Made by a program: the position numbers and the translations under genes
Assembly: GCF_009789195.1 (NCBI RefSeq)
Contig: NZ_WSTC01000006.1
Location: 8,126-72,125, forward strand
Direction: 5' to 3'
Source: Paenibacillus sp. MMS18-CY102
Lineage (GTDB): Bacteria; Bacillota; Bacilli; Paenibacillales; Paenibacillaceae
Length of the DNA: 64,000 bases
The notes under the pieces: model-generated
Databases searched by the model: none
Seen by the model: the letters and a program-made list of their open reading frames with translations, nothing else
Told to the model about the DNA's origin: nothing
Shown here: one piece after another, positions 3,604 to 41,045 of the stretch
How positions within the stretch are numbered: the first letter of the stretch is position 1
Layout of the letters: each line of letters opens with the position of its first letter

Positions 3604-4305
3604 TTGTATTCCACCTTCTAATGAGAATAACATGTTGACCGATATCATTCATATGTTTAGTTTCATGAGACCAAAGGGCAGACTCCCCCCTCGATGGCTG
3701 GTACGCGTTTTATCCAGCCCGACAACTAAATACCTCGAACGATACGGAAAGACATCCAGTTCACCCCATTTGAAAGATTGGTTCAATTATAGTTCGAAGA
3801 GAGTTTGTGAATCAAGACTTGAAAACGAGTAAAAGGCAAAGAAGGGTGATGTAGTACCTATGGTTACAGAGCTGTCCTATTAGTAATAAGAAGCTGGTTT
3901 TGCTAGAATTTTTTTCCAACGCGACTTGTGAGTTGCTCGGAAAGAGGGTACTTAGTCTCATTGAGAACACAGTTTTATTTTTCAACGTTTTTAACAAACA
4001 GGTCTCGTTTCAAAAATTAGAGCTTGTCGAGCGAAGGGTGTTTATTATATATAAAGAGTGGTAAATATGTAACAATCACAAAAATTGTAAAGAAATCGTT
4101 CCATAGGAAGTGATGAAGAGAGGAGGTAGCTAAATTCATTTCATTAGGATAACTAGTCTAACTTTTTTACCAGATAACATAATATTGTCACTTTAACGTA
4201 TGCACAGTCAGGAATCAATAGCTAGTTGACTAGATGGCTAGGAAGCAAGACACCGATAATACAACATTGTACTAAATTTGGAATTAAAGGAAAAGAGGAA
4301 TGTAA

Positions 4306-16097: not shown

Positions 16098-18326
16098 ATG
16101 AGTTGGCACGTTCAACGTAAAGGACGAGTCAACTCATTTGTATATGAGCCTTTAAATGAAAAACTATTAAGTGGGGTAATCGTTATTAAAACATTGATAA
16201 TTGATAACTACGATTCGTATACCTATAACATTTTTCAGCTTGTGGCCAAAATCAGTGGACAGGAACCGATCGTTATTCGTAACGATCAGATGAGCTTTGC
16301 TTCACTGCAACGTTTCGATTTTGATAACATTATCATTTCACCTGGACCAGGACGACCGGAAATTCCGATAGATGTCGGATTATCTGCTGAGGTGTTACTT
16401 CACATGGAAGTTCCGATATTAGGCGTGTGCCTGGGTCACCAAACGCTGGCTTACGTTTGCGGTGGCGAGGTAATGCATGCACCCGAGATCTTTCATGGTC
16501 GATTAAGTGAGGTGTTTCATGATGAATTGGGGCTGTTTACAAATATTCCTCAAGGCTTCAAGGTTGTTAGATATCATTCGCTGATCGTAAATGATGGTTT
16601 ACCCGCTAGCTTGGAGAAAACAGCGTGGACCTCGGATGGCGTGATAATGGGATTGAGACATAGAGAGAAACCTCAATGGAGTGTCCAGTTTCATCCAGAA
16701 TCTATTTGTACAGAATATGGTGAACAATTGTTTCAAAACTTCCACGATTTAACGATAAAGTATTATACGGATAAACAAATGATCGATCGGCTTGAGAAAG
16801 AGCAGGAAACTGCAGCATCCCGAGAAAACAGTGATGGCGATACGGATTCCAGCGGCAAATACGAAGTGATCGTAAGGGAACTGCCTGCTTACTATGATCC
16901 CGAAGAGGTATTTGTCCAACAGATGGCCGACCAGCCTTACGCTTTCTGGCTGGACAGCAGTAAAATAGAACCGGGGCGTTCAAGATATTCATTTATTGGG
17001 GCGAATACAGGGCCCTTCCGAAAAGTTATCCGATACCGTACAGCAGATCAACAGCTGGAAGTAACGACGTCCGAGGGAACGAAACAATGGACAGCTTCAA
17101 TCTTCGATTATTTAGAGCATGAACTTAAAGCATTTAGGTGCGACCAAAAGCTTCCGTTCGATTTTAACGGTGGGTTTGTAGGCTTCTTTGGCTATGAGCT
17201 TAAAGAAGAGTGTGGAGGCAATCGCGTTCATGCTTCAGATATCCATGACGCAATGTTTATCTTTGCTGATCAGTTTGTTGCGTTTGACCACGAACTTCGA
17301 AAAACTTACCTCGTTTCGTTAACCGATGATGTTACCCGGGCAGTAGCTCATACATGGTTAGATGAGTTTGAGCGGCATCTTCAAAACTTGTCCGCTTCAA
17401 AAGAATATTCACCGCAATATGTCAATCAAACGGTTGAGTTTCAATTAAGCAGGAGTTATAAGGAATATATCCAGGATCTCAATCAATTGAAGCAGTATTT
17501 AGTCGAAGGTGAGAGTTATGAAGTGAATCTGACAAACCGGATACACACAGGTCCAATCAAAGATACATTGCACACTTATCGCGTGTTACGCAAGGTAAAC
17601 CCAGCCCCTTATTCTGCATATTTACGTTTTGATCAAGTTGCTATTTTGTGCAGTTCTCCTGAAAAGTTCATTCAGGTCTCATCGGATCGAAGCGTGGAAG
17701 CAAAACCAATTAAGGGAACATTGCCACGTGGTAAATCGCCTGACGAGGATCAGACGCTGAAGCAGCAGCTTTTGACGAGTGTAAAGGATTTCTCGGAGAA
17801 TCTGATGATCGTCGATCTGATTCGAAATGATCTAGGTGTCGTTTGCGAAGTCGGATCGGTCCACGTGCCGAAATTGATGGAAGTAGAATCATTTGAGACG
17901 GTGCACCAGCTAGTTTCGACTATTAAAGGGAAATTGAAGCAAGAGGTGTCGGTCGTGGAATGCATTAAAGCGGGCTTTCCGGCCGGATCCATGACGGGTG
18001 CGCCGAAGATCAGAACGATGGAAATTATAGATACGTTAGAAAAGGAGCCAAGAGGAGTATATTCAGGTACCTTGGGATTACTTAGCTTAAATGGATCAGC
18101 GGATTTGAATGTCGTTATACGAACGATTGTTTGTACGCCTGAGAAAACAACGATTGGAGTTGGAGGCGGAATTACGATTCAGTCAAATGCAGATTCGGAA
18201 TACGAAGAAATGCTGCTTAAAGCGAAAGCGTTAATGAACGCTATAGTTGTCGCATTAAACGGAGAGAAAAGAGTAGTCAACTATGTTATTCATGGTGCCC
18301 GTGAGTTAGTAAGTTTCTTACATTAG
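16098..18326 (+). CDS. fused glutamine amidotransferase + chorismate-binding enzyme (PabA-PabB-type aminodeoxychorismate synthase-like)
   Basis: N-terminal class-I GATase (IIDNYDSYTYNIFQ, GVCLGHQ). C-terminal MST/chorismate-binding domain (SYEVNLTNR, GAPKIRTMEII, PRGVYSGTLG, GGGIT). Confidence 0.7.
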   Translation: MSWHVQRKGRVNSFVYEPLNEKLLSGVIVIKTLIIDNYDSYTYNIFQLVAKISGQEPIVIRNDQMSFASLQRFDFDNIIISPGPGRPEIPIDVGLSAEVLLHMEVPILGVCLGHQTLAYVCGGEVMHAPEIFHGRLSEVFHDELGLFTNIPQGFKVVRYHSLIVNDGLPASLEKTAWTSDGVIMGLRHREKPQWSVQFHPESICTEYGEQLFQNFHDLTIKYYTDKQMIDRLEKEQETAASRENSDGDTDSSGKYEVIVRELPAYYDPEEVFVQQMADQPYAFWLDSSKIEPGRSRYSFIGANTGPFRKVIRYRTADQQLEVTTSEGTKQWTASIFDYLEHELKAFRCDQKLPFDFNGGFVGFFGYELKEECGGNRVHASDIHDAMFIFADQFVAFDHELRKTYLVSLTDDVTRAVAHTWLDEFERHLQNLSASKEYSPQYVNQTVEFQLSRSYKEYIQDLNQLKQYLVEGESYEVNLTNRIHTGPIKDTLHTYRVLRKVNPAPYSAYLRFDQVAILCSSPEKFIQVSSDRSVEAKPIKGTLPRGKSPDEDQTLKQQLLTSVKDFSENLMIVDLIRNDLGVVCEVGSVHVPKLMEVESFETVHQLVSTIKGKLKQEVSVVECIKAGFPAGSMTGAPKIRTMEIIDTLEKEPRGVYSGTLGLLSLNGSADLNVVIRTIVCTPEKTTIGVGGGITIQSNADSEYEEMLLKAKALMNAIVVALNGEKRVVNYVIHGARELVSFLH

Positions 18327-19664: not shown

Positions 19665-21836
19665 TCAGCTGTACATGGTCACGACATTATGGATAATCTT
19701 CAATCCCGAATCCCCTCTAGTAGTCAAAATGGACTCCGGATGGAATTGAACTGCGGAAATTGGCAATGTTTTATGTTCGACAGCCATGACTACCTGATCA
19801 TCTGATACAGCAATTATCTTTAAGCAATCGGGGACTGTGCTGGCATGAATCGAATGATATCGGCTGGCCATAAATACTTTCGGTAAGTCATCCCACAATC
19901 GGCTTTCATTAGAGGTATGAATAGGCGAAGATTTCCCATGCATTGGATACTCAAGGTAATCTAGGGTTCCTCCGAAGTATTCGACAATGCCTTGAAGTCC
20001 GAGGCATACTCCGAAAATCGGGATGTTATTGCTGATACATAAACCTATTGTATCGTTTAGGGTGAATTCGCTAGGCGTACCGGGTCCGGGCGATAGTACG
20101 ACTAAATCGAATGACGAAGCAGGGTCTTCTAATATCTTCTTGGCAAGCGGTTGCCGAGCTGTCAAAATATCAGCACCTGTTTGTTTGAAGTAGTTGCCCA
20201 ATGTATGGACAAAGGAATCCTCGTGATCCACAATTAGAATTCTCTTTGCCGTTTTCTGTAACGGAAGCGGGGGAGCTTCATGCTTAAGATCGTGCTGGCT
20301 CCCCTTAATGGCCTGGACTAATGCAGCTGCCTTTGTTACGGTTTCTTCTTCTTCATCTGCGGGGATGGAGTCAAATAGAAGTGTCGCCCCAACGCGAATG
20401 TCTGCAATACCATTTTGAATTCGCATGGTCCGTAGCGTAAGTCCTGTATGCAAATCCCCGTTGAACGAATAGTATCCAACAGCGCCGCCATACCATCTTC
20501 GACGTGAACTTTCATTCTGTTCAATCCATTTAATTGCGTTGCGTTTAGGGGCACCAGTAACTGTTACGGCCCACATGTGGCTGATAAATGCGTCCAAAGC
20601 ATCCACCTCTGGCAAGAGATGACCCTCAACATGATCGACGGTATGAATAAGATGCGAGTACATTTCAAGCTGACGACGACCGATAACATTAACAGAGCCG
20701 GGGACACAAATTCTGGACTTATCATTTCTATCCACGTCTGTGCACATAGTTAACTCCGCTTCATCCTTCGTCGAACTTAGCAACTGCAATATCCGATCAG
20801 CATCCTCAATAGCGTTGCTGCCCCTTCTTACCGTGCCGGAAATTGGACAAGTTTCCACTCGGCTGCCTTTTACGCGGACATACATTTCCGGTGAAGATCC
20901 AACCAAATGCTCCGTGCCTAAATTAATAATAAACCCATAAGGGCTAGGATTAATTTCGCGGAGCCTTGAAAAAATGTTGGAGGGTGCGTCTTTGCATTTT
21001 TCGAAAAATGAGTGGGTTGGGACGACTTCAAACAAATCGCCACGTTTAAAGGATTCTACAGCTTTTTCGACAAGTTTTGCGTAATTTCCCTTTATGTACT
21101 GAGGTGGTAGGTTCCCATCTGTTGTCAATTGGGAAAGAACGTTAACTTCACTGGAGCGTTCTATTCCTTCCGTGCTAGCGCCCTGAAAGATAAAATCATA
21201 GGACAACAAGTAAGCACACTCTTTTTGATGATCAACAATTGTTAATTCATCAGGCAGGTAGAGTACCATATCTGGGAGCTTCTCTGAGCGATTCTGTGAT
21301 AGCTCCACCGATTCTAGATTAAACACCAAATCGTAGCCAAAAGCACCGTACAGACCTAAATAGGAATCCTCAGGAGCGTAGAAAAGTTCTTTAATAGCAC
21401 GTAGTACAGTAAATATAGAAGGCTGTTTCGTGCGGTCTTCTTCATTAAATAAGTCATCACTTGTCTTAATTGAGCCTTGAAGCAGGTAATTCGTAAAGGT
21501 AAGATGCTCAATGACAGAAAGGGCTTCGATATGTTTATGTAGTTCATTTAGAATTATTTCACCTCGGGAATTCAAGGCGCTAATTTCAAATTGCTTTCCA
21601 TATGAGCGGAGTTCGAGAGGAGGATTGATAAATCCGATATCCCAGCGTGAGTAACGGCCTGGATATTCATAACTACTGGAGAAGAGTGCTCCTTTTTGTT
21701 GATCGATGAAGGCTAGAATCCTGTCGGAAGCAGTTGTTGGTTCAATAGGGGTTGCGGCTCTCCTAATTTGAAATCCAGCCTGAGTTGTGTACAAAATTTC
21801 AGAGGGATTAACGACCAATTTGGAAACAATACTCAT
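19665..21836 (-). CDS. fused chorismate-binding (TrpE-like, N-terminal) + glutamine amidotransferase (C-terminal) enzyme; anthranilate synthase or PhzE-type ADIC synthase
   Basis: The N-terminal MST domain is about 500 aa. The C-terminal GATase has KRILIVDHEDSFVHTLGNYF and GVCLGLQG. AAAGGAGG RBS. Confidence 0.7.
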   Translation of the reverse strand: MSIVSKLVVNPSEILYTTQAGFQIRRAATPIEPTTASDRILAFIDQQKGALFSSSYEYPGRYSRWDIGFINPPLELRSYGKQFEISALNSRGEIILNELHKHIEALSVIEHLTFTNYLLQGSIKTSDDLFNEEDRTKQPSIFTVLRAIKELFYAPEDSYLGLYGAFGYDLVFNLESVELSQNRSEKLPDMVLYLPDELTIVDHQKECAYLLSYDFIFQGASTEGIERSSEVNVLSQLTTDGNLPPQYIKGNYAKLVEKAVESFKRGDLFEVVPTHSFFEKCKDAPSNIFSRLREINPSPYGFIINLGTEHLVGSSPEMYVRVKGSRVETCPISGTVRRGSNAIEDADRILQLLSSTKDEAELTMCTDVDRNDKSRICVPGSVNVIGRRQLEMYSHLIHTVDHVEGHLLPEVDALDAFISHMWAVTVTGAPKRNAIKWIEQNESSRRRWYGGAVGYYSFNGDLHTGLTLRTMRIQNGIADIRVGATLLFDSIPADEEEETVTKAAALVQAIKGSQHDLKHEAPPLPLQKTAKRILIVDHEDSFVHTLGNYFKQTGADILTARQPLAKKILEDPASSFDLVVLSPGPGTPSEFTLNDTIGLCISNNIPIFGVCLGLQGIVEYFGGTLDYLEYPMHGKSSPIHTSNESRLWDDLPKVFMASRYHSIHASTVPDCLKIIAVSDDQVVMAVEHKTLPISAVQFHPESILTTRGDSGLKIIHNVVTMYS

Positions 21837-30298: not shown

Positions 30299-30847
30299 AT
30301 GACTAGACGAGAACGAGTGACAGCAGGTTTTTTATATGGCATTTTCATTTGTTACATCATTTTTTTAATTAAATTGTTGTTCTTATCAAGAGTTTCACTT
30401 GTGGATTTGTTTGATAGCCAAAGGGCTGCCATTCGATCGATCAATCTTATCCCCTTTAAGAGTATCAAGGATTATATGGTTGACGACCCTGCGACGATAA
30501 GAAGATTCGCATTTAGTAATGTGGTTGGCAATATCGTTATTTTTATCCCTCTTGGCATCTTTTTGTTAGTATTCAAAAATGGTAAACGAATAATGGCCAA
30601 TGTGTTATTACTATTCCTAGTGAGTTTATTCGTTGAAATTATGCAGTGGCTGTTAGGCATTGGCGTAGCGGACATTGATGACATCATTTTAAATAGTTTG
30701 GGCGGATGGATTGGCATTGTAGGATGTAAGTTGTTATTCGTTATATTACGGGATAAGAGAAGAGTACGTACTGTAATCACCATGCTGTCTGCCATAGGAT
30801 TGCCTGCTATATTGTACATACTATTTATGGTGAAATTGCGCCTCTAA
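30299..30847 (+). CDS. VanZ-like family membrane protein
   Basis: Four to five TM segments with the conserved VanZ core VEIMQWLLGIGVADIDDIILNSLGGWIG. Start MTRRE with a GGATGGAGG RBS. Confidence 0.6.
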   Translation: MTRRERVTAGFLYGIFICYIIFLIKLLFLSRVSLVDLFDSQRAAIRSINLIPFKSIKDYMVDDPATIRRFAFSNVVGNIVIFIPLGIFLLVFKNGKRIMANVLLLFLVSLFVEIMQWLLGIGVADIDDIILNSLGGWIGIVGCKLLFVILRDKRRVRTVITMLSAIGLPAILYILFMVKLRL

Positions 30848-30857
30848 AGCTCCACCA

Positions 30858-30892
30858 TGTAAGCCCGACCATAAGGCCTGGGCTTTTTTGTG
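30858..30892 (+). terminator. probable rho-independent terminator
   Basis: aagcccgacc...ggcctgggc followed by T6. Confidence 0.4.
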
Positions 30893-31086
30893 TGCGGCAA
30901 AATAGAAAACTTTTCCCCGTCGTAATACTTTCGCCATGTTCGCCGTTGCCAAAATAAGCGAATATAGGATACGAGTGATGACACGGAAACGTTACCTCGG
31001 CTGGGATCTCCAAATGATCCGGCAGTGCTTGCCACGCTGTGAGCAAGTATCCTGTAACGCTGCTTCCGGCATTTCTCACACAATGC

Positions 31087-31155
31087 ATGGGTTCGAATCC
31101 CATATCGCTATTCCAGCGATTAACTCAGTGGTAGAGTACTCGACTGTTAATCGAG
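31087..31155 (+). other. rearranged tRNA-like element: T-arm + 3' acceptor fragment fused to the 5' acceptor-D-anticodon(GTT, Asn) portion; not an intact tRNA
   Basis: 31087-31110 reads atggg-TTCGAAT-cccat-atcgcta (canonical T-arm plus a 3' acceptor strand). 31114-31155 reads cagcgat-ta-actc-agtggta-gagt-a-ctcga-CTGTTAA-tcgag (5' acceptor, D-arm GTGGTAGAG, anticodon loop with GTT). There is no T-arm after the anticodon arm and no CCA. Confidence 0.45.
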
Positions 31156-31451
31156 AGAAACGACAATCCTATTAGGCCTGTTAGCGGGAATCCTCGGCCA
31201 GCCTTCGGGCAGGCGCTGGTCAAGTTGCTATGCAGCCTGCGGATACCGGGTGGGAGAAAGGTACTGAGCCACGTAATGGCAAGATGGTCGAGGCCGGGCT
31301 GAAAGCGAGCGCGTCGTCATCATCTACAACATTCCATGTGCAGGTACAGCTATTCCATCCTTAAGCTAGGCTCCGCATCTGGATCAGGGGGATTTCCATA
31401 TCAAGGCCGCACACGAACAACAAGCAGGGTTATGAAATGAGGGGATTAAAG

Positions 31452-32564
31452 ATGTTTAAGAAGATGATCGTCAAAACGGACGAACGGGGATTATTGTTTA
31501 AGAAGGGCAGCTATGTGAAGCATTTGCAGCCCGGCGTGCATCGTCTGGCTACATTTTCCGATGATGAAGTTGTGCTATTGAATGTGACGAAGCCTTTCGC
31601 CGTGCAGGGGAAGGATCTGAATTTATTTCTTAAGGATGAGCAATTGCTAACGGAGCTGACCGTTATTAACGTGCAGGACCATGAGTACGTGCTTCATTAC
31701 GAGGATGGCAAGTTCGTTGCGCTGCTTACTCCGGGCAAATACGCTTTCTGGAATGTGCTGAAGCAGCATGATTTTAAGCGAGTCGATATCCGCCAGCCGA
31801 TGGTTGGCGCCGAGATCGATGAAGCCATATTTGCCAAAGTCGTGGGCTACCTCTACGCGTCCGAAGTGGCGAGCCACGAGACGGGCGTGCTGTTCTACAA
31901 CAATGTGATGCAGAGGGAGCTTGCGCCGGGGAAATACTATTTCTGGAGAGGGCCTGTGCAGGCAGCTGTAAAGACGGTGGATTTGCGCCACCAACAGCTG
32001 GACATGACGGGGCAAGAGATTATGACGGAGGATAAGGTGACGCTTCGCTTAAACTTCGTCTGCCAGTACAAAATCGTTGAGCCGCTGCGCGCACTGGAGT
32101 TCAAAGCGTTCGAGGATCAGGTGTATATTCTGTTGCAGCTGATTTTGCGGGAATATGTCGGGACCTTGAAGCTCGATGACCTGTTGCGGATGAAGCAAGA
32201 GATCGCGGCGTTCGTGCTGTCCCGCCTGAATGAGAAGAGCGAGGAGTACGGGGTGAAATTTTTTGCTGCTGGCGTGAAAGATATTATTTTGCCGGGGGAC
32301 ATCAAGGAGATTCTGAACACGGTGCTGCTGGCAGAGAAGAAGGCGCAAGCGAACCTGATTACCCGTCGCGAGGAAACAGCGTCCACCCGCAGCCTGCTTA
32401 ACACAGCGAAGCTGATGGATGAGAACCAGACGTTGTTCCGCTTGAAGGAGCTGGAGTTCCTTGAGAAAATTTGCGAGAAGATCGGGACGATCTCGCTCAC
32501 GGGCGGAGGCAATCTGCTGGAGCAGCTGAATTCGTTGCTTGCAGGGGCGGGTGCGAAGCAGTAG
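31452..32564 (+). CDS. SPFH/band-7 (stomatin/flotillin-like) domain protein with about 170-aa N-terminal extension
   Basis: The C-terminal half has a band-7 signature (ILPGDIKEILNTVLLAEKKAQANLITRREETAS) and a coiled-coil tail. Start MFKKMIV with a GAGGGGA RBS. Confidence 0.55.
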   Translation: MFKKMIVKTDERGLLFKKGSYVKHLQPGVHRLATFSDDEVVLLNVTKPFAVQGKDLNLFLKDEQLLTELTVINVQDHEYVLHYEDGKFVALLTPGKYAFWNVLKQHDFKRVDIRQPMVGAEIDEAIFAKVVGYLYASEVASHETGVLFYNNVMQRELAPGKYYFWRGPVQAAVKTVDLRHQQLDMTGQEIMTEDKVTLRLNFVCQYKIVEPLRALEFKAFEDQVYILLQLILREYVGTLKLDDLLRMKQEIAAFVLSRLNEKSEEYGVKFFAAGVKDIILPGDIKEILNTVLLAEKKAQANLITRREETASTRSLLNTAKLMDENQTLFRLKELEFLEKICEKIGTISLTGGGNLLEQLNSLLAGAGAKQ

Positions 32565-32615
32565 CGGCAATAGAGTAGAGCTGGTGGAAGGTGGTTGCTT
32601 TCGGGACATTTTTTC

Positions 32616-32798
32616 TAACGGACTCAGGAGCCGTTATTCCCCTCCAAAAGCACCCGTTACAAATGTAACGGACCCAGCAGCCGTTATTTAGCGATTTTGC
32701 TGCCTCGTGGGGGGCGAATTGGCCAAATAGCGGCGCCTCGGTCCGTTAGCGCGAAAAAGTGACTGATTTTGATCAAATAAGGGCTGCTGGGTCCGTTA
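32616..32798. repeat. array of four TAACGG-N9-CCGTTA palindromic units (copy A of an about 190-bp element)
   Basis: Units at 32616-32636, 32666-32686, 32728-32748 (tagcgg variant) and 32778-32798 (taaggg variant). A 26-nt stretch, ttctaacggactcaggagccgttatt, is identical to the second locus. Confidence 0.6.
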
Positions 32799-32990
32799 GA
32801 ATCTCCAACATACGGTTTCTGTTTGTTTTACAACTCAAATAAGGGTGTCCTAAAGTCTACGCTTTCGGGACACTCTTATTTGTTTGTCTTCAAAAAAAGC
32901 TGGTTTTGCACGATAATAAAGAATATTCCTCTTACTGGAAATGACCGTTTAGAAAAGGAATCGAGAAATTGTGTTTAAGGAGGAACTGAG

Positions 32991-39029: not shown

Positions 39030-39062
39030 CTCCCCTTGGGGAAGTTGGAATGCTTTTTTTGT
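39030..39062 (+). terminator. rho-independent terminator
   Basis: caactcccc-ttg-gggaagttg hairpin followed by T7. Confidence 0.45.
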
Positions 39063-39064
39063 TC

Positions 39065-39247
39065 TAACGGACTCAGGAGCCGTTATTATGCTGAAAAAGT
39101 AACGTTTGCGGCTGTAACGGATCCCAGCGCCGTTATTTGGCGTGTAAATGAACATTGGAGGCACATTTGAGTGAAATAGCGGCATCTGGGTCCGTTAGAT
39201 TTTGAATTCGTGTGTTTAGCGTCCAATAACGGCTCTGGAGTCCGTTA
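39065..39247. repeat. array of four TAACGG-N9-CCGTTA palindromic units (copy B of the about 190-bp element)
   Basis: Units at 39065-39085, 39115-39135, 39177-39197 (tagcgg variant) and 39227-39247. The unit order and spacing are colinear with copy A. Confidence 0.6.
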
Positions 39248-39569
39248 GGTTAGGTGGTTGCGGGCGATTAGGCCAGAATGCATCATGCTGTGCTGCATGA
39301 TACGAAGCAATATAATGCCAAGCAACATAATGCCAACAAGGTGCACAACGTACGCTGGGATGGGGGATTTCGCTGCGGGCGAATCGTCATCGGCGATAAG
39401 TGACAGCCCAGGGAATATCCGCACCGCGCCTGTCTCCTGGCGTGTGGTGCCATCGCGGCAGACTGTGCTGAGTCTTGGACCGGTGGCCTACCCATGCGGA
39501 TTGTCATAACCGACATGTGACCAAGCATAAACCATGTATAAGGGACTAATCTGTATACATGGGAGGGCC

Positions 39570-41045
39570 ATGATGCACGAAAACAATGGGAACGATGCGA
39601 ACGGTGCAATTGATGCGAACAACGCGTACAACACAAGCGACGCGCACAACACAAGCAATGCGCACAACACAAGCAACGCCGCGCACAATGCAAACCACGC
39701 AACTCGCGCGGACAAGTGGGCGGGGGATCGGCCGGCGGCCTTTCATTCGCAGACAGTAGGTGACCGGGGGCCAGTAGTGGAGCAGGATTCGGTGCTGCAC
39801 GAAACGCTGGAGGAATTTATTTCTGCCAAACCAATCGAGAGGCCGGTGCATGTGAAGGGTGCAGGAGCTTTCGGATACTTCCAGGCGACGCATGCCATGA
39901 CGGAGTTTACGAAGCTGTGTTTCCTGCAACATCCGGGCCAGCAAGTTCCGGTCACGGTCCGCTTCTCGCTTGCTGTGAGCAATAGAGGAACGCCGGACAC
40001 GTCGCGGAACGTGCGAGGCTTCTCCACGAAATTTTATACGCCGCATGGCGTGTTCGATTTGCTGTGCAATCATATTCCCGTATTCTCCGTGCGGGATGCG
40101 ATTCGCTTCCCTGAGTCGATCAAGGCATTCCTGCCTTCGCCAAGAAACAACCTGCTTGATCCCGAAAGGTTCTGGAGCTTCGTGGCGAGAGCGCCGGAAT
40201 CGACGAACTTCCTCGTGTGGCTATACTCTGATGTCGGTACAGTAAAGAGCTTCCGCCACATTCGGGGACATGGCGTGAACACCTACGTTTGGCGGAATGC
40301 GCAAGGCGTTCGCCGATATGTCAAATATCACTGGATGCCGCTGGCTGGCGTGCAGTATATCGATCGGCAGGAGGCTGCACGGTTGGCCGGCGAGAATCCG
40401 GACATTGCGGCCAAGGATCTCTATGATACGCTAGCGACAGGAAAGACTGTTGAATATGGGCTTTATGTGCAGTTGATGAACCCTGAGGACGAAGCAACGC
40501 TGCCGTTCGACCCGTTGGATGATACGAAAATTTGGGACGAACAGAAATATCCGATGCAGCCCGTTGGCCGGCTCGTATTAAACCGCAATCCAGAAAACTA
40601 TATGGAGCAGGTGGAGAAAATCGCATTCTCGCCGTCTAACTTACTGGAAGGCGCGGAATTGTCGGATGATAAAATGCTGCAGGGCCGTGCTAATATTTAC
40701 TCGGATTCGCAGCGCAGGCGGCTGGGGCCAGAGTTTCGCAAAATCCCGATCAACCACCAGAAAGATTGGACGCCTGCCTCGCAGGTAACGAGCGGAAGCG
40801 GCCAATTCGTGGAGGGGCGGCTCATTCGGTACCATACCAATAAACCGGATAATTTTACGCAAGCAGGCGAATTTTATCGCTCGCTCTCGCCCGCGCAGCA
40901 GGAGAACCTGGTAGGCAATCTTGCTGGAGACTTGGCGGGCATATCGCATGAAACGCAAAGCATTGTACTCAGTTATTTGGCGCTTGCTTCGCCGGAGCTG
41001 GGAGAGCGGGTTACCCGGCAAATCGGCCTGCAAGCGAAGAGGTAA
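39570..41045 (+). CDS. katA: monofunctional heme catalase with Asn/His/Ala-rich N-terminal repeat extension
   Basis: Catalase core VHVKGAGAFGYFQATH, RERIPERVVHA-like region and the FDRERIPERVVH-equivalent segments. Start ATG at 39570 after a GGGAGG RBS. The N-terminal approximately 60 aa (YNTSDAHNTSNAHNTSNAAHNANH) is encoded by 18-bp tandem repeats. Confidence 0.85.
   Translation: MMHENNGNDANGAIDANNAYNTSDAHNTSNAHNTSNAAHNANHATRADKWAGDRPAAFHSQTVGDRGPVVEQDSVLHETLEEFISAKPIERPVHVKGAGAFGYFQATHAMTEFTKLCFLQHPGQQVPVTVRFSLAVSNRGTPDTSRNVRGFSTKFYTPHGVFDLLCNHIPVFSVRDAIRFPESIKAFLPSPRNNLLDPERFWSFVARAPESTNFLVWLYSDVGTVKSFRHIRGHGVNTYVWRNAQGVRRYVKYHWMPLAGVQYIDRQEAARLAGENPDIAAKDLYDTLATGKTVEYGLYVQLMNPEDEATLPFDPLDDTKIWDEQKYPMQPVGRLVLNRNPENYMEQVEKIAFSPSNLLEGAELSDDKMLQGRANIYSDSQRRRLGPEFRKIPINHQKDWTPASQVTSGSGQFVEGRLIRYHTNKPDNFTQAGEFYRSLSPAQQENLVGNLAGDLAGISHETQSIVLSYLALASPELGERVTRQIGLQAKR

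What the first reader, a model, noticed from the sequence alone, without database searches (positions are those of the whole stretch)
31087..31155. Head-to-tail fusion of a tRNA 3' fragment to the 5' two-thirds of a tRNA-Asn(GUU)-like sequence at a compositional boundary
A perfect T-arm with the canonical TTCGAAT loop, followed by a 7-nt 3' acceptor strand (atcgcta), is separated by only ttc from a segment with a 5' acceptor strand (cagcgat, complementary to the upstream atcgct), a D-arm (actc-AGTGGTA-gagt) and an anticodon arm whose loop CTGTTAA gives anticodon GTT. The order is 3'-part then 5'-part, the reverse of a gene. No T-arm follows and there is no CCA. This is either a recombination scar at a tRNA integration site (tandem att remnants after element loss) or a circularly permuted tRNA-like gene. 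The second would be remarkable in a bacterium. It sits exactly where GC content steps up, consistent with an island junction.
Basis: seen in the sequence. Interest (0 to 1): 0.6.

Follow-up and report, generated by a model that had tools for sequence, protein, structure and literature searches.

The report
tRNA-like domain in slipin leader RNA
The "back-to-front tRNA" is real, but it is not an integration scar or a tRNA gene: it is a conserved tRNA-shaped module inside a roughly 480-base structured RNA that precedes a stomatin-like (slipin) gene in soil bacteria of two phyla, and this RNA family matched no Rfam 15 family at its curated threshold and did not turn up in the papers I could search.

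Summary
Window 31087-31155 (+) holds a T-arm, a closed 6-bp acceptor hairpin, a D-arm and an anticodon-like hairpin, in that permuted order.

The scar or island-junction reading is refuted:
- There is no second copy of the fragment, no bounding repeat and no integrase.
- The module lies about 330-365 nt upstream of a slipin (SPFH) gene in about 75 of 80 Paenibacillaceae species, and compensatory base changes support all four helices.

The module is one domain of a leader of about 480 nt (about 30973-31451). The leader has a 5' domain, the tRNA-like module and a 3' domain closed by a long covarying helix. It has no terminator before the slipin ATG.

A metagenome scan found the same leader in Chitinophagaceae (Bacteroidota). 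There it carries two tandem T/acceptor/D units, again always upstream of a slipin gene (57 of 57 informative loci).

The only Rfam similarity is a sub-threshold local match to the tRNA-like core of YrlA (bacterial Y RNA). The Ro-binding stem, its motif and an rsr gene are all absent. The GUU "anticodon" is not conserved.

The most likely role is a tRNA-elbow mimic acting within the slipin mRNA leader, as a docking or translation-control element. This mechanism is inferred, not shown.

The parts
30896..30967 (+). Promoter-proximal region conserved with the unit. It includes the box GTAATACTTTCGCCATGTTCG (30920-30942) and a -10-like TATAGG (30963-30968).
   Evidence: blastn homology to L125-L131 resumes at 30896-30918 and runs to 30967, although their upstream genes differ. 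The box recurs in distant lineages L190, L183, L195, L147 and L168. A GATAAT-like -10 box is conserved in the 81-sequence alignment. The promoter role is inferred. The simple sigma-70 scan found none here.
30973..31077 (+). 5' domain of the leader. Closing helix P1 is about 30973-30986 with 31064-31077. P2 is GGATC 31004-08 with GATCC 31016-20. It also holds the invariant GCAGTGC (31022-28), hairpin P3 (31029-46) and the invariant GTATCCTGTA (31047-56).
   Evidence: RNAalifold on 34 species: P2 and P3 covary, and 9 of 17 pairs show double changes. P1 cognate strands pair at -20.7 kcal/mol against -14.9 for non-cognate strands. The core GCAGTGC..GTATNCTG is shared with Chitinophagaceae leaders.
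31087..31103 (+). T-arm mimic: 5-bp stem and loop TTCGAAT, equivalent to tRNA positions 49-65.
   Evidence: Two of the 5 stem pairs covary (UA/AU/GC and GC/UA/AU) and the other three never vary. The loop is TTCGAWT in 49 of 57 distinct modules.
31104..31120 (+). Closed acceptor-stem mimic: 6 bp (ATCGCT/AGCGAT) capped by the loop ATTCC.
   Evidence: Five of 6 pairs show changes on both sides across 57 distinct sequences. In the Chitinophagaceae two-unit form, both acceptor hairpins covary at every pair (7 of 7 and 5 of 5).
31121..31138 (+). U8-A9 equivalent, D-arm mimic (ACTC/GAGT, loop AGTGGTA with A14 and G18G19), and position 26.
   Evidence: Three of 4 D-stem pairs covary. The sequence TGGTA, which carries G18G19, is retained even where the stem is shortened.
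31139..31155 (+). Anticodon-arm mimic: 5-bp stem and 7-nt loop CTGTTAA.
   Evidence: Four of 5 pairs covary. Loop positions 32, 33, 37 and 38 are conserved as C, U, A, A, while the 'anticodon' varies; GTT occurs in 2 of 57.
31175..31408 (+). 3' domain. It is closed by a long bipartite helix: GGCC 31175-78 with GGCC 31405-08, and GGAATCCT 31187-94 with GGGATTTC 31389-96. It holds the conserved block GCTATGCAGCCTGCGGATACCGG (31227-49), a variable segment of constant length of about 105 nt, and the conserved CTTAAGC..GGCTCCGC (31360-76). The inner helix AGCCT 31234-38 pairs with AGGCT 31368-72.
   Evidence: The 8-bp helix carries 15 extra pair types, the best in an all-against-all column scan. 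Cognate strands pair at -32.5 kcal/mol against -25.0 for non-cognate strands. The variable segment is 100-110 nt in 55 of 58 sequences. The inner helix covaries in the listing (AATCC/GGATT, AGTC/GACT, AATGG/CCATT).
31409..31451 (+). Poorly conserved spacer with the Shine-Dalgarno sequence GAGGGG (31439-44). There is no terminator.
31452..32564 (+). Slipin-family (SPFH/Band 7) gene, 370 aa, with no transmembrane segment. It is the gene that always follows the leader.
   Evidence: Pfam Band_7 over residues 146-313. It is 100% identical to the slipin family protein of Paenibacillus sp. MMS18-CY102. A slipin ORF lies downstream of the leader in all 80 genome loci (by construction) and in 57 of 57 informative metagenome loci found by the RNA pattern alone.

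Best explanation
What it is (well supported, about 0.9). The element is the tRNA-mimic domain of a previously uncatalogued, highly structured 5' leader RNA. The leader is about 480 nt long in this genome, about 30973-31451. It is transcribed with, and strictly linked to, a soluble slipin (stomatin-like SPFH) gene. The domain is a cloverleaf opened at the variable loop, with its acceptor stem closed by a loop: T-arm, acceptor hairpin, D-arm, anticodon-like arm.

How it works (inferred, about 0.35). The T-loop and the G18G19 D-loop dock to form a tRNA-type elbow on top of an acceptor/T coaxial stack of 11-12 bp. The module cannot be aminoacylated or decode. It instead presents a tRNA 'top half' as a docking surface within the mRNA leader. 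The partner would be machinery that recognises tRNA shape (ribosome, RNase P, T-arm-modifying enzymes) or the leader's own 5' domain. The effect would be to set translation or stability of the slipin mRNA. This is the mechanism shown experimentally for the tRNA-derived yjdF riboswitch and for tRNAs grafted into leaders. Chitinophagaceae use two such units in tandem.
For: SHOWN
- The four arms are at 31087-31155.
- Rfam's only similarity is the T/closed-acceptor/D core of YrlA: 31 bits, E = 1.4e-4 in the window, and 33 bits in a Chitinophagaceae leader.
- The T-loop lies 305-431 nt upstream of the slipin ATG, mostly about 330-365 nt, in all but 6 of 80 species: five loci lack the motif and in L190 it lies at -84.
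- The covariance model finds 61 hits with E < 1e-10, all at that position.
- Covariation in Paenibacillaceae: 93.9% of cells paired, 14 of 20 pairs with double changes, 0 of 500 shuffles as good.
- Two-unit form, on a plain MAFFT alignment: 95.9% paired, 28 of 35 pairs with double changes, score 0.60 against at most 0.13 when partners are slid.
- The flanking domains are also structured and covary.
- Homology to relatives restarts at the promoter even where upstream genes differ.
- No terminator lies between the RNA and the ATG.
- An RNA-pattern scan of metagenomes returned only loci with a slipin gene downstream (57 of 57 with enough sequence). The other long-enough matches were 2 true tRNAs and 3 tmRNA ends.
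- T-loop, G18G19, U8, A14, C32, U33, A37 and A38 are conserved, while the anticodon is not.
- In L151, L152 and L175 the T-loop and the D-loop are replaced together, as expected if the two loops interact.

PRECEDENT
- yjdF is a tRNA homologue whose elbow activates translation, and grafted tRNAs raise translation 2- to 6-fold (PMC9142559).
- YrlA's tRNA-like domain is recognised by TruB, DusA and RNase P (PMC4201824).
Against: - There are no expression data, so the transcription start is inferred from a conserved -10-like box. The simple promoter scan found nothing on the + strand.
- The module lies about 300 nt from the start codon, far from the ribosome-binding site, unlike yjdF.
- The module is degenerate or lost in L183 and L195, and the 3' domain is missing in L190. 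The tRNA mimic is therefore not indispensable to whatever the leader does.
- Covariation of the Levitt 15:48 pair is not convincing.
- The folding energy of the region is ordinary (z = +0.40).
- I found no conserved alternative pairing that links the module to the Shine-Dalgarno sequence.
Confidence: 0.55

Rival explanations
1. The leader is mainly a functional non-coding RNA that assembles with the slipin protein into a ribonucleoprotein. The tRNA-like unit or units would serve as protein-binding or scaffold elements. Co-transcription would ensure stoichiometry or co-assembly, as with OLE RNA and its membrane partner OapA.
For: - The RNA-gene linkage is strict across two phyla, although the ribosome-binding regions are very different (Shine-Dalgarno in Paenibacillus, A-rich and without one in Chitinophagaceae).
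- The RNA is very large and has three domains, bigger than known riboswitches.
- No expression platform overlaps the Shine-Dalgarno sequence, and there is no terminator.
- The slipin has no membrane segment. It is predicted as three beta units, an SPFH domain and a long helix. SPFH proteins build cages, and major vault protein chains align over the whole model (417-467 columns).
Against: - No RNA-binding domain was recognised in the protein.
- There is no evidence that the leader accumulates separately.
- The 3' domain differs between the two phyla and is absent in L190.
Confidence: 0.25
2. The leader is a riboswitch-type sensor of a small molecule or of free tRNA. The tRNA-like fold would be the ligand-dependent or competitor-sensitive state, as in yjdF or T-box elements.
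For: - yjdF shows that a tRNA-derived aptamer can be a ligand-responsive cis element.
- The invariant junction nucleotides in the 5' domain (ACCNGG, GCAGTGC, GTATNCTGT) look like a binding core.
- Two mutually exclusive pairings exist at 31234-43.
- tRNA gene arrays lie upstream in many Chitinophagaceae loci.
Against: - yjdF and T-box models give no hit.
- I found no conserved switch that involves the Shine-Dalgarno sequence or a terminator.
- The downstream gene gives no hint of a metabolite.
Confidence: 0.1
3. It is a YrlA-type bacterial Y RNA that binds the Ro60 orthologue Rsr.
For: A local match to the YrlA model covers T-arm, closed acceptor and D-arm. The order of the elements is the same as described for YrlA.
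Against: - The score is 31-33 bits against a gathering score of 69, and only model positions 29-81 of 114 match.
- After the D-arm there is a closed anticodon-like hairpin, where YrlA has the Ro-binding stem formed by the RNA's two ends.
- No GNCGAAN(0-1)G motif lies on the + strand within 30960-31450.
- No TROVE or RtcB gene was found among the window's genes.
- The partner gene is always a slipin.
Confidence: 0.03
4. It is a recombination scar: tandem att remnants, or a decayed junction between two adjacent tRNA genes, at the edge of a genomic island.
For: - GC rises at about 31 kb.
- Junctions of tandem tRNA genes do resemble the motif and score weakly with the model (L132, L162).
- tRNA arrays lie near some family members, so an ancient origin from a tRNA-tRNA junction is plausible.
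Against: - No repeat of the fragment and no bounding direct repeat.
- No integrase.
- The same arrangement is kept in more than 130 loci of two phyla, with compensatory changes.
- No intact tRNA sits at the site in any of 60 relatives scanned.
Confidence: 0.01
5. It is a genuine circularly permuted tRNA gene whose transcript is circularised and re-cut into a working tRNA-Asn.
For: The order of the halves is permuted, and the anticodon loop reads GUU in this genome.
Against: - The break is in the variable loop, with about 110 nt and about 300 nt of conserved structured RNA on either side.
- The acceptor hairpin is 5-7 bp with a small loop and has no discriminator or CCA.
- The anticodon is not conserved (21 different loops in 57 modules).
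- ARAGORN finds nothing.
Confidence: 0.01

Closest known systems
YrlA, the tRNA-like bacterial Y RNA (Rfam RF02553; Chen et al. 2014, PMC4201824; structure preprint 10.1101/312249)
   Same: - Both have the same permuted order: T-arm, acceptor stem closed by a loop, D-arm.
- Both have conserved T-loop and D-loop nucleotides able to form a tRNA elbow.
- It is the only Rfam family with a significant local match.
- Some YrlA RNAs also have 7-bp acceptor stems.
   Different: - YrlA is a stand-alone RNA of about 110 nt. Its ends form the Ro60-binding stem (the anticodon-stem equivalent, opened at the anticodon loop), and it is encoded next to rsr.
- Here the anticodon arm is a closed hairpin and the cloverleaf is opened at the variable loop.
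- The module is embedded between two large structured domains of an mRNA leader.
- The Ro-binding motif and an rsr gene are absent.
- The linked gene is a slipin, and Chitinophagaceae have two units in tandem.
yjdF riboswitch (Rfam RF01764; Trachman et al. 2022, PMC9142559)
   Same: Both are tRNA-derived folds with a D-loop/T-loop elbow sitting in a bacterial mRNA leader. yjdF gives experimental precedent that such a fold acts in cis on translation.
   Different: - yjdF keeps the normal tRNA strand order, is about 100 nt long, abuts the ribosome-binding site and binds azaaromatic ligands.
- No yjdF match was found here.
- This module is permuted, lies about 300 nt from the ATG, and is one of three domains.
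Circularly permuted tRNA genes of the red alga Cyanidioschyzon and some other algae and archaea
   Same: The 3' half of the cloverleaf is encoded upstream of the 5' half.
   Different: - Those genes yield functional tRNAs through a circular intermediate, and their termini are processed to give a free acceptor end with CCA.
- Here the acceptor is a permanently closed, covarying hairpin, and the anticodon is not conserved.
OLE RNA with OapA, and other large ornate bacterial RNAs (GOLLD, ROOL; PMC12286853 appeared in a search listing but was not read)
   Same: Both are large, multi-domain, covarying RNAs tied to one particular protein gene and co-transcribed with it. The function is not obvious from the sequence.
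   Different: There is no sequence or model similarity. OLE's partner is an integral membrane protein, whereas this slipin has no membrane segment.
T-box leaders and the RNase P specificity domain, which recognise the tRNA elbow (from my own knowledge; reviews PMC4810234 and PMC4919913 appeared only in the listing and were not opened)
   Same: Both involve the tRNA elbow as a recognition surface in a leader RNA context. In principle the conserved 5' domain here could dock on the module's elbow.
   Different: Those RNAs bind a tRNA supplied in trans, whereas this leader carries the tRNA-like unit itself. There is no T-box or RNase P model match.

Membership tests
YrlA / bacterial Y RNA (RF02553) | T-arm, loop-closed acceptor stem and D-arm in that order, with tRNA-like conserved loop nucleotides | tested here: met
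   The cmscan alignment covers model positions 30-81. Covariation supports these helices.
YrlA / bacterial Y RNA (RF02553) | Reaches the Rfam gathering score over the full model | tested here: not met
   31 bits in the window and 33 bits in L309, against a gathering score of 69. Only the central 52 of 114 positions align. There are no gathering-level hits in 28 loci.
YrlA / bacterial Y RNA (RF02553) | The 5' and 3' ends pair into the Ro60-binding stem carrying GNCGAAN(0-1)G | tested here: not met
   A closed anticodon-like hairpin follows the D-arm. The form of the motif with one N (GNCGAANG) was searched and has no + strand match in 30960-31450. The form without N was checked only by reading the sequence.
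YrlA / bacterial Y RNA (RF02553) | Encoded next to rsr (TROVE-domain Ro60 orthologue) | tested here: not met
   No TROVE or RtcB domain was found in the 28 window ORFs scanned. The adjacent gene is a slipin in every locus.
YrlA / bacterial Y RNA (RF02553) | Binds Ro60/Rsr, and is modified by TruB and DusA | not testable with these tools
   Needs immunoprecipitation and modification mapping.
Functional tRNA gene | Recognised by a tRNA finder; acceptor stem with free 5' and 3' ends; conserved anticodon | tested here: not met
   ARAGORN gives 0 genes in the window and none at the leader in 60 relatives. The acceptor is a covarying closed hairpin. There are 21 different loop sequences in 57 modules.
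Circularly permuted tRNA gene | Both halves sit in one short transcript whose ends are joined and re-cut to give a mature tRNA | tested here: inconclusive
   The sequence argues against it: large conserved structured flanks, a variable anticodon, and no discriminator or CCA. RNA ends cannot be tested here.
tRNA-gene integration scar (attL/attR remnant) | Direct repeat of the tRNA 3' fragment at the other end of the island; an integrase nearby; an intact tRNA or empty site in relatives | tested here: not met
   no repeat; no integrase; same arrangement and no tRNA in relatives.
yjdF riboswitch (RF01764) | Match to the family model; normal-order four-way junction next to the ribosome-binding site | tested here: not met
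   No hit, even at E up to 10, in 30700-31600. The module is permuted and lies 297 nt from the ATG.
Slipin-leader RNA family (defined here) | 5' core ACCNGG-P2-GCAGTGC-P3-GTATNCTGT, followed by at least one T/closed-acceptor/D unit and an anticodon-like arm, upstream of a slipin ORF on the same strand | tested here: met
   The window has all of these elements. They are shared by about 75 genome loci and about 70 metagenome loci.

The most novel reading that the evidence does not exclude
The leader is the RNA subunit of a bacterial cage-type ribonucleoprotein. In this reading, a soluble slipin oligomerises into an SPFH cage that carries, or is nucleated by, its own leader. The predicted architecture of the slipin (beta-repeat units, SPFH 'shoulder', long helix) aligns end to end with major vault protein. 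The tRNA-elbow mimics, one or two per RNA, would be the handles, and the whole would be functionally tied to the accessory tRNA arrays that often lie just upstream. This would be a prokaryotic analogue of the vault/vault-RNA or Ro/Y-RNA particles, and a new class of large bacterial RNA.
Probability: 0.1. Interest if true: 0.9.

Novelty: new variant of a known kind. Interest (0 to 1): 0.75.

Why it matters
- tRNA mimicry by bacterial RNAs is known from only a few cases: tmRNA, YrlA, yjdF and the thrS operator.
- This is a further, structurally distinct solution. The cloverleaf is opened at the variable loop and closed at the acceptor end, is used singly or in tandem, and is built into a leader of 450-600 nt with two more covarying domains.
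- The family is abundant in soil Paenibacillaceae and Chitinophagaceae. No Rfam 15 family reached its gathering score on the 28 loci scanned or matched beyond the local YrlA and tRNA hits, and the family did not appear in the literature I could search.
- It gives a handle on the function of a widespread, uncharacterised class of soluble SPFH (slipin) proteins.
- It also supplies a natural test case for how tRNA-shaped modules act inside mRNAs.
- For genome annotation: such elements should not be read as tRNA pseudogenes or island junctions.

Tried and rejected
- **tRNA or tmRNA gene, including permuted tmRNA.** ARAGORN finds nothing.
- **Any known RNA family.** Rfam at gathering scores on the window and on 28 related loci gives only true tRNAs.
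- **Phage origin.** The general T-loop/D-loop pattern in viral contigs picks up tightly packed phage tRNA clusters and is not specific. The family-specific 5'-core pattern gave 68 chance-level viral hits, none with the rest of the leader.
- **Levitt pair (15:48) covariation as proof of the 3D fold.** The window (G15/C48) and L124 (A15/U48) fit, but other lineages do not. I left this as inconclusive.
- **RNA dimerisation through the palindrome ATC(C/T)G(C/T)(G/A)GAT in the 3' domain.** The palindrome is not kept in the window's own clade. The left half instead covaries with the GGCT/GATT block downstream.
- **The SD-like GGAGG in the 3' strand of the closing helix as a decoy ribosome-binding site.** It disappears where the partner strand changes (GGGAAGAC, GGAAAATTGCC). 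It is therefore simply the complement of the 5' strand.
- **Alternative pairing between the T-arm and the GAATCC of the closing helix.** It is not maintained in L159 or L174.
- **Coding potential of ORF 30936-31175.** Helix covariation and indels that are not multiples of three argue against it.
- **Derivation from a particular tRNA.** The 'un-permuted' module is at most 74% identical to array tRNAs of other species. This is uninformative.
- **Defence-system membership of the slipin.** There is no PADLOC hit.
- **Literature.** Six full-text searches and three paper look-ups gave no description of the family.
Full report
**1. The observation**

- T-arm: ATGGG / TTCGAAT / CCCAT, 31087-31103.
- A hairpin immediately after it: ATCGCT / ATTCC / AGCGAT, 31104-31120.
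- TA, then a D-arm: ACTC / AGTGGTA / GAGT, 31123-31137.
- A, then a 5-bp stem with the 7-nt loop CTGTTAA, 31139-31155.

With tRNA numbering, this is positions 49-71, a 5-nt cap, then positions 2-43. U8, A14, G18G19, T54-T55-C56, A58, U33 and A37 are in place.

ARAGORN finds no tRNA or tmRNA anywhere in the window. No Rfam family reaches its gathering score. In E-value mode the region gives two local hits:
- YrlA, the tRNA-like bacterial Y RNA: 31 bits, E = 1.4e-4. It covers exactly the model's T-arm, loop-closed acceptor stem and D-arm (positions 30-81 of 114).
- tRNA: 26 bits, over the D and anticodon arms.

The minimum-free-energy fold reproduces the four hairpins, but the stretch is no more stable than shuffled sequence (z = +0.40). 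Thermodynamics alone proves nothing here.

**2. Context in the window**

The element lies in a 560-nt gap. Upstream is the terminator of a vanZ-like gene (about 30861-30890). Downstream is a 370-aa SPFH/Band 7 protein whose ATG is at 31452. That protein is 100% identical to the 'slipin family protein' of Paenibacillus sp. MMS18-CY102.

The genes of the supposed island, 31.2-41.1 kb, are slipin, a SUFU-like gene, an M29 aminopeptidase, an EF-G-binding protein, DUF4317, an alkylation-repair gene and a catalase. None is an integrase or a phage gene, and no TROVE/Rsr or RtcB gene occurs among the window's larger ORFs.

The T-arm/acceptor fragment has no second copy in the window, even with three mismatches. 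No direct repeat brackets the higher-GC block.

**3. Related genomes**

Loci encoding the slipin in three other Paenibacillus species have different upstream neighbours. They nevertheless share about 450-500 nt of upstream non-coding sequence, including the tRNA-like element.

A scan of one genome per species returned 80 slipin loci from Paenibacillus, Fontibacillus, Ammoniphilus and others, at 68-96% protein identity. A T-loop motif lies 305-431 nt upstream of the ATG, mostly about 330-365 nt, in all but six of them (five lack the motif and in L190 it lies at -84).

A covariance model built from 20 modules finds 61 matches with E < 1e-10, every one at that position, and one in the window at 86.6 bits. 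Its weak extra hits are junctions inside genuine tRNA arrays.

On the 57 distinct sequences:
- 93.9% of cells are paired.
- 14 of 20 pairs show changes on both sides.
- No shuffle out of 500 reaches the observed covariation.
- Sliding the partner strand collapses pairing to 32-48%.
- All four helices are supported.

That alignment is fitted to the model, which is a caveat. The independent test in section 5 does not share it.

The 'anticodon' is not conserved. There are 21 loop variants, and GTT occurs in 2 of 57. Positions 32, 33, 37 and 38 are conserved.

In the closest relative, P. curdlanolyticus YK9, homology runs from window 30905 to 32797. In six further species it restarts at 30896-30918, in the promoter region, whatever lies upstream.

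The heritable unit is therefore promoter plus leader plus slipin. The GC step is the 5' edge of that unit.

**4. The rest of the RNA**

Conservation starts at a -10-like box (TATAGG, 30963-68) and runs to about 31400.

*5' domain, 30973-31077.* Its features are:
- A closing helix whose cognate strands pair much better than non-cognate ones (-20.7 against -14.9 kcal/mol).
- Hairpins P2 and P3, which covary.
- Invariant junction strings: ACCNGGC, GCAGTGC and GTATNCTGTA.

*3' domain, about 31175-31408.* Its features are:
- A long bipartite closing helix: GGCC/GGCC plus GGAATCCT/GGGATTTC.
- This is the strongest covarying helix in an all-against-all column scan (15 extra pair types over 8 bp). Its strands change wholesale between clades, for example GGCAATTTTC/GAAAATTGCC and GGAGTCTTC/GAAGACTCC. 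Cognate strands pair at -32.5 against -25.0 kcal/mol for non-cognate strands.
- A conserved block, GCTNTGCAATCCGYGGATACCG.
- A poorly conserved segment of nearly constant length (100-110 nt in 55 of 58 sequences).
- An inner long-range helix that covaries.

No terminator separates the RNA from the Shine-Dalgarno sequence and the ATG. The tRNA-like element is thus the middle domain of a three-domain leader of about 480 nt.

**5. A second phylum**

I scanned metagenome contigs for the 5'-core-plus-T-loop pattern.

- Five of these are chance hits on real tRNAs or on tmRNA 3' ends.
- Every other locus with enough downstream sequence has a slipin ORF after the RNA: 57 of 57.
- About a third of those 57 have Paenibacillus-type slipins.
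- The rest have slipins only 21-50% identical by tblastn, mostly 40-45% where the full length aligns. A protein search assigns L309's, the one searched, to Chitinophagaceae: Ginsengibacter, Puia and Segetibacter.

Their leaders keep the 5' core but carry two tandem units (T-arm, closed 5-7-bp acceptor hairpin, D-arm), followed by one anticodon-like arm.

On an ordinary MAFFT alignment of 34 such sequences, my seven-helix structure gives:
- 95.9% of cells paired.
- 28 of 35 pairs with double changes.
- A covariation score of 0.60, against 0.21 for shuffles and at most 0.13 for slid partners.

Rfam again gives only a local YrlA hit (33 bits) and weak tRNA hits there.

Variants inside Paenibacillaceae are informative:
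- L151, L152 and L175 keep the four helices but have replaced the T-loop and the D-loop together. This is what one expects if the two loops interact.
- L183 and L195 have largely lost the module.
- L190 lacks the 3' domain.

**6. What it is and how it may work**

*Shown.* This is a conserved, covarying, permuted tRNA mimic with a closed acceptor end. It is embedded in a large structured leader that is strictly linked to a slipin gene in two phyla.

*Inferred.* The T-loop and the D-loop form a tRNA elbow on an acceptor/T stack of 11-12 bp. The unit cannot be charged or decode, so it most plausibly serves as a tRNA-shaped docking surface.

I commit to a cis role in controlling slipin translation or mRNA fate, for three reasons:
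- The RNA is contiguous with the ORF in both phyla.
- The tRNA-derived yjdF riboswitch and tRNAs grafted into leaders activate translation through their tertiary fold (PMC9142559).
- The YrlA tRNA-like domain is recognised by tRNA enzymes and RNase P (PMC4201824).

Several points weigh against this:
- The module is about 300 nt from the start codon.
- Some lineages have lost it.
- I found no expression platform.

The main rival is that the leader is itself a functional RNA that assembles with the slipin. The protein has no membrane segment. It is predicted (pLDDT 79) as three beta units, an SPFH domain and a long helix. Stomatin, HflK/C and prohibitin chains align over about 220-280 columns, whereas major vault protein chains align over 417-467 columns. 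That supports a cage-forming protein but says nothing direct about RNA binding.

**7. Comparison with known families, and novelty**

The module works like the YrlA tRNA-like domain. It fails three defining features of YrlA: the gathering score, the Ro-binding terminal stem with its motif, and linkage to rsr. It is not a tRNA gene, not a permuted tRNA gene in the algal sense, not a yjdF riboswitch and not a T-box.

No Rfam 15 family covers the leader in either phylum. Full-text searches on YrlA, tRNA-like RNAs, slipin/SPFH, Paenibacillus and Chitinophaga, plus look-ups in two Breaker-laboratory discovery papers, found no description. The searchable library is incomplete, so prior description cannot be excluded.

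I rate it a new variant of a known kind (a bacterial tRNA mimic), carried by what appears to be a new large RNA family.

**8. Limits**

- There are no transcript data.
- The transcription start, the 3D fold and any partner are inferred.
- The structures of the 5' and 3' domains are only partly resolved.
- The link to tRNA arrays is an observation without statistics: 12 of 60 metagenome loci scanned and 2 of 60 Paenibacillaceae loci.

Noticed in passing
L309:9382-9865; also L272, L280, L282, L284, L286, L290, L297, L298, L312, L325, L328; in Paenibacillaceae, L132:72-1184 and L162:6453-7085: Arrays of 3-13 genuine tRNA genes lie on the same strand just upstream of the slipin leader in many Chitinophagaceae-type loci; in L162 the array lies downstream. 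Some carry unusual anticodons: Ile-TAT, Phe-AAA, Leu-AAG. In L309 the last tRNA ends about 30 nt before the leader begins. This may bear on the origin or the function of the tRNA-like units.
   Followed up: partly
window 31452-32564 (model mcbd7753bcf92): The slipin has no membrane segment. It is predicted as three repeated five-strand beta units, an SPFH domain and a long helix. In Foldseek against the PDB, major vault protein chains align over the whole length (417-467 columns, E about 5e-10 to 1e-7), whereas stomatin and HflK chains cover only the C-terminal 220-280 columns.
   Followed up: partly
window 30920-30942: A box of about 21 nt, GTAATACTTTCGCCATGTTCG, lies upstream of the -10-like element. 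It is conserved even in distant Paenibacillus lineages (L190, L183, L195, L147, L168). It could be an operator, a promoter for an alternative sigma factor, or the true 5' end of the RNA.
   Followed up: no
window 32609-32800 and 39058-39249: Two intergenic blocks of about 190 nt are built from repeated units resembling TAACGGACTCAGGAGCCGTTATT. One lies just after the slipin gene and the other after the alkylation-repair gene. They look like REP or MITE elements.
   Followed up: no
L133:3363-3385, and the same position in L134, L136-L138, L140, L143, L144 and L189: The P. elgii/ehimensis group has a second T-arm-like motif, GCAGGTTCGATTCCTGC, about 270 nt upstream of the leader's T-arm. It has no acceptor or D-arm partner and gives no Rfam hit.
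   Followed up: no
window 31437-31445: A two-codon mini-ORF, ATG AAA TGA, overlaps the Shine-Dalgarno region of the slipin gene. The string ATGAAATGAGG is kept in the close relatives L124-L131 and in L182.
   Followed up: no
window 16098-18326 (+) and 19665-21836 (-): Two fused anthranilate/aminodeoxychorismate-synthase-type genes lie 1.3 kb apart and have opposite domain order. One runs GATase, then Anth_synt_I_N, then Chorismate_bind. The other runs Anth_synt_I_N, then Chorismate_bind, then GATase.
   Followed up: no
window 39620-39700: Four tandem copies of an 18-21-nt unit (CAACGCGTACAACACAAGCGACGC-like) lie at the 5' end of the catalase ORF (39534-41045), ahead of the Pfam catalase domain, which starts at residue 70.
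   Followed up: no
L151, L152 and L175 (about 3640-3740); L195; L183; L190:3906-3987: These are natural variants of the leader. In L151, L152 and L175 the T-loop and the D-loop are both replaced (the D-loop by a TTCG tetraloop). In L195 and L183 the module is almost deleted. In L190 the 3' domain is absent and the ATG lies 84 nt after the T-loop. They are useful as ready-made mutants.
   Followed up: partly
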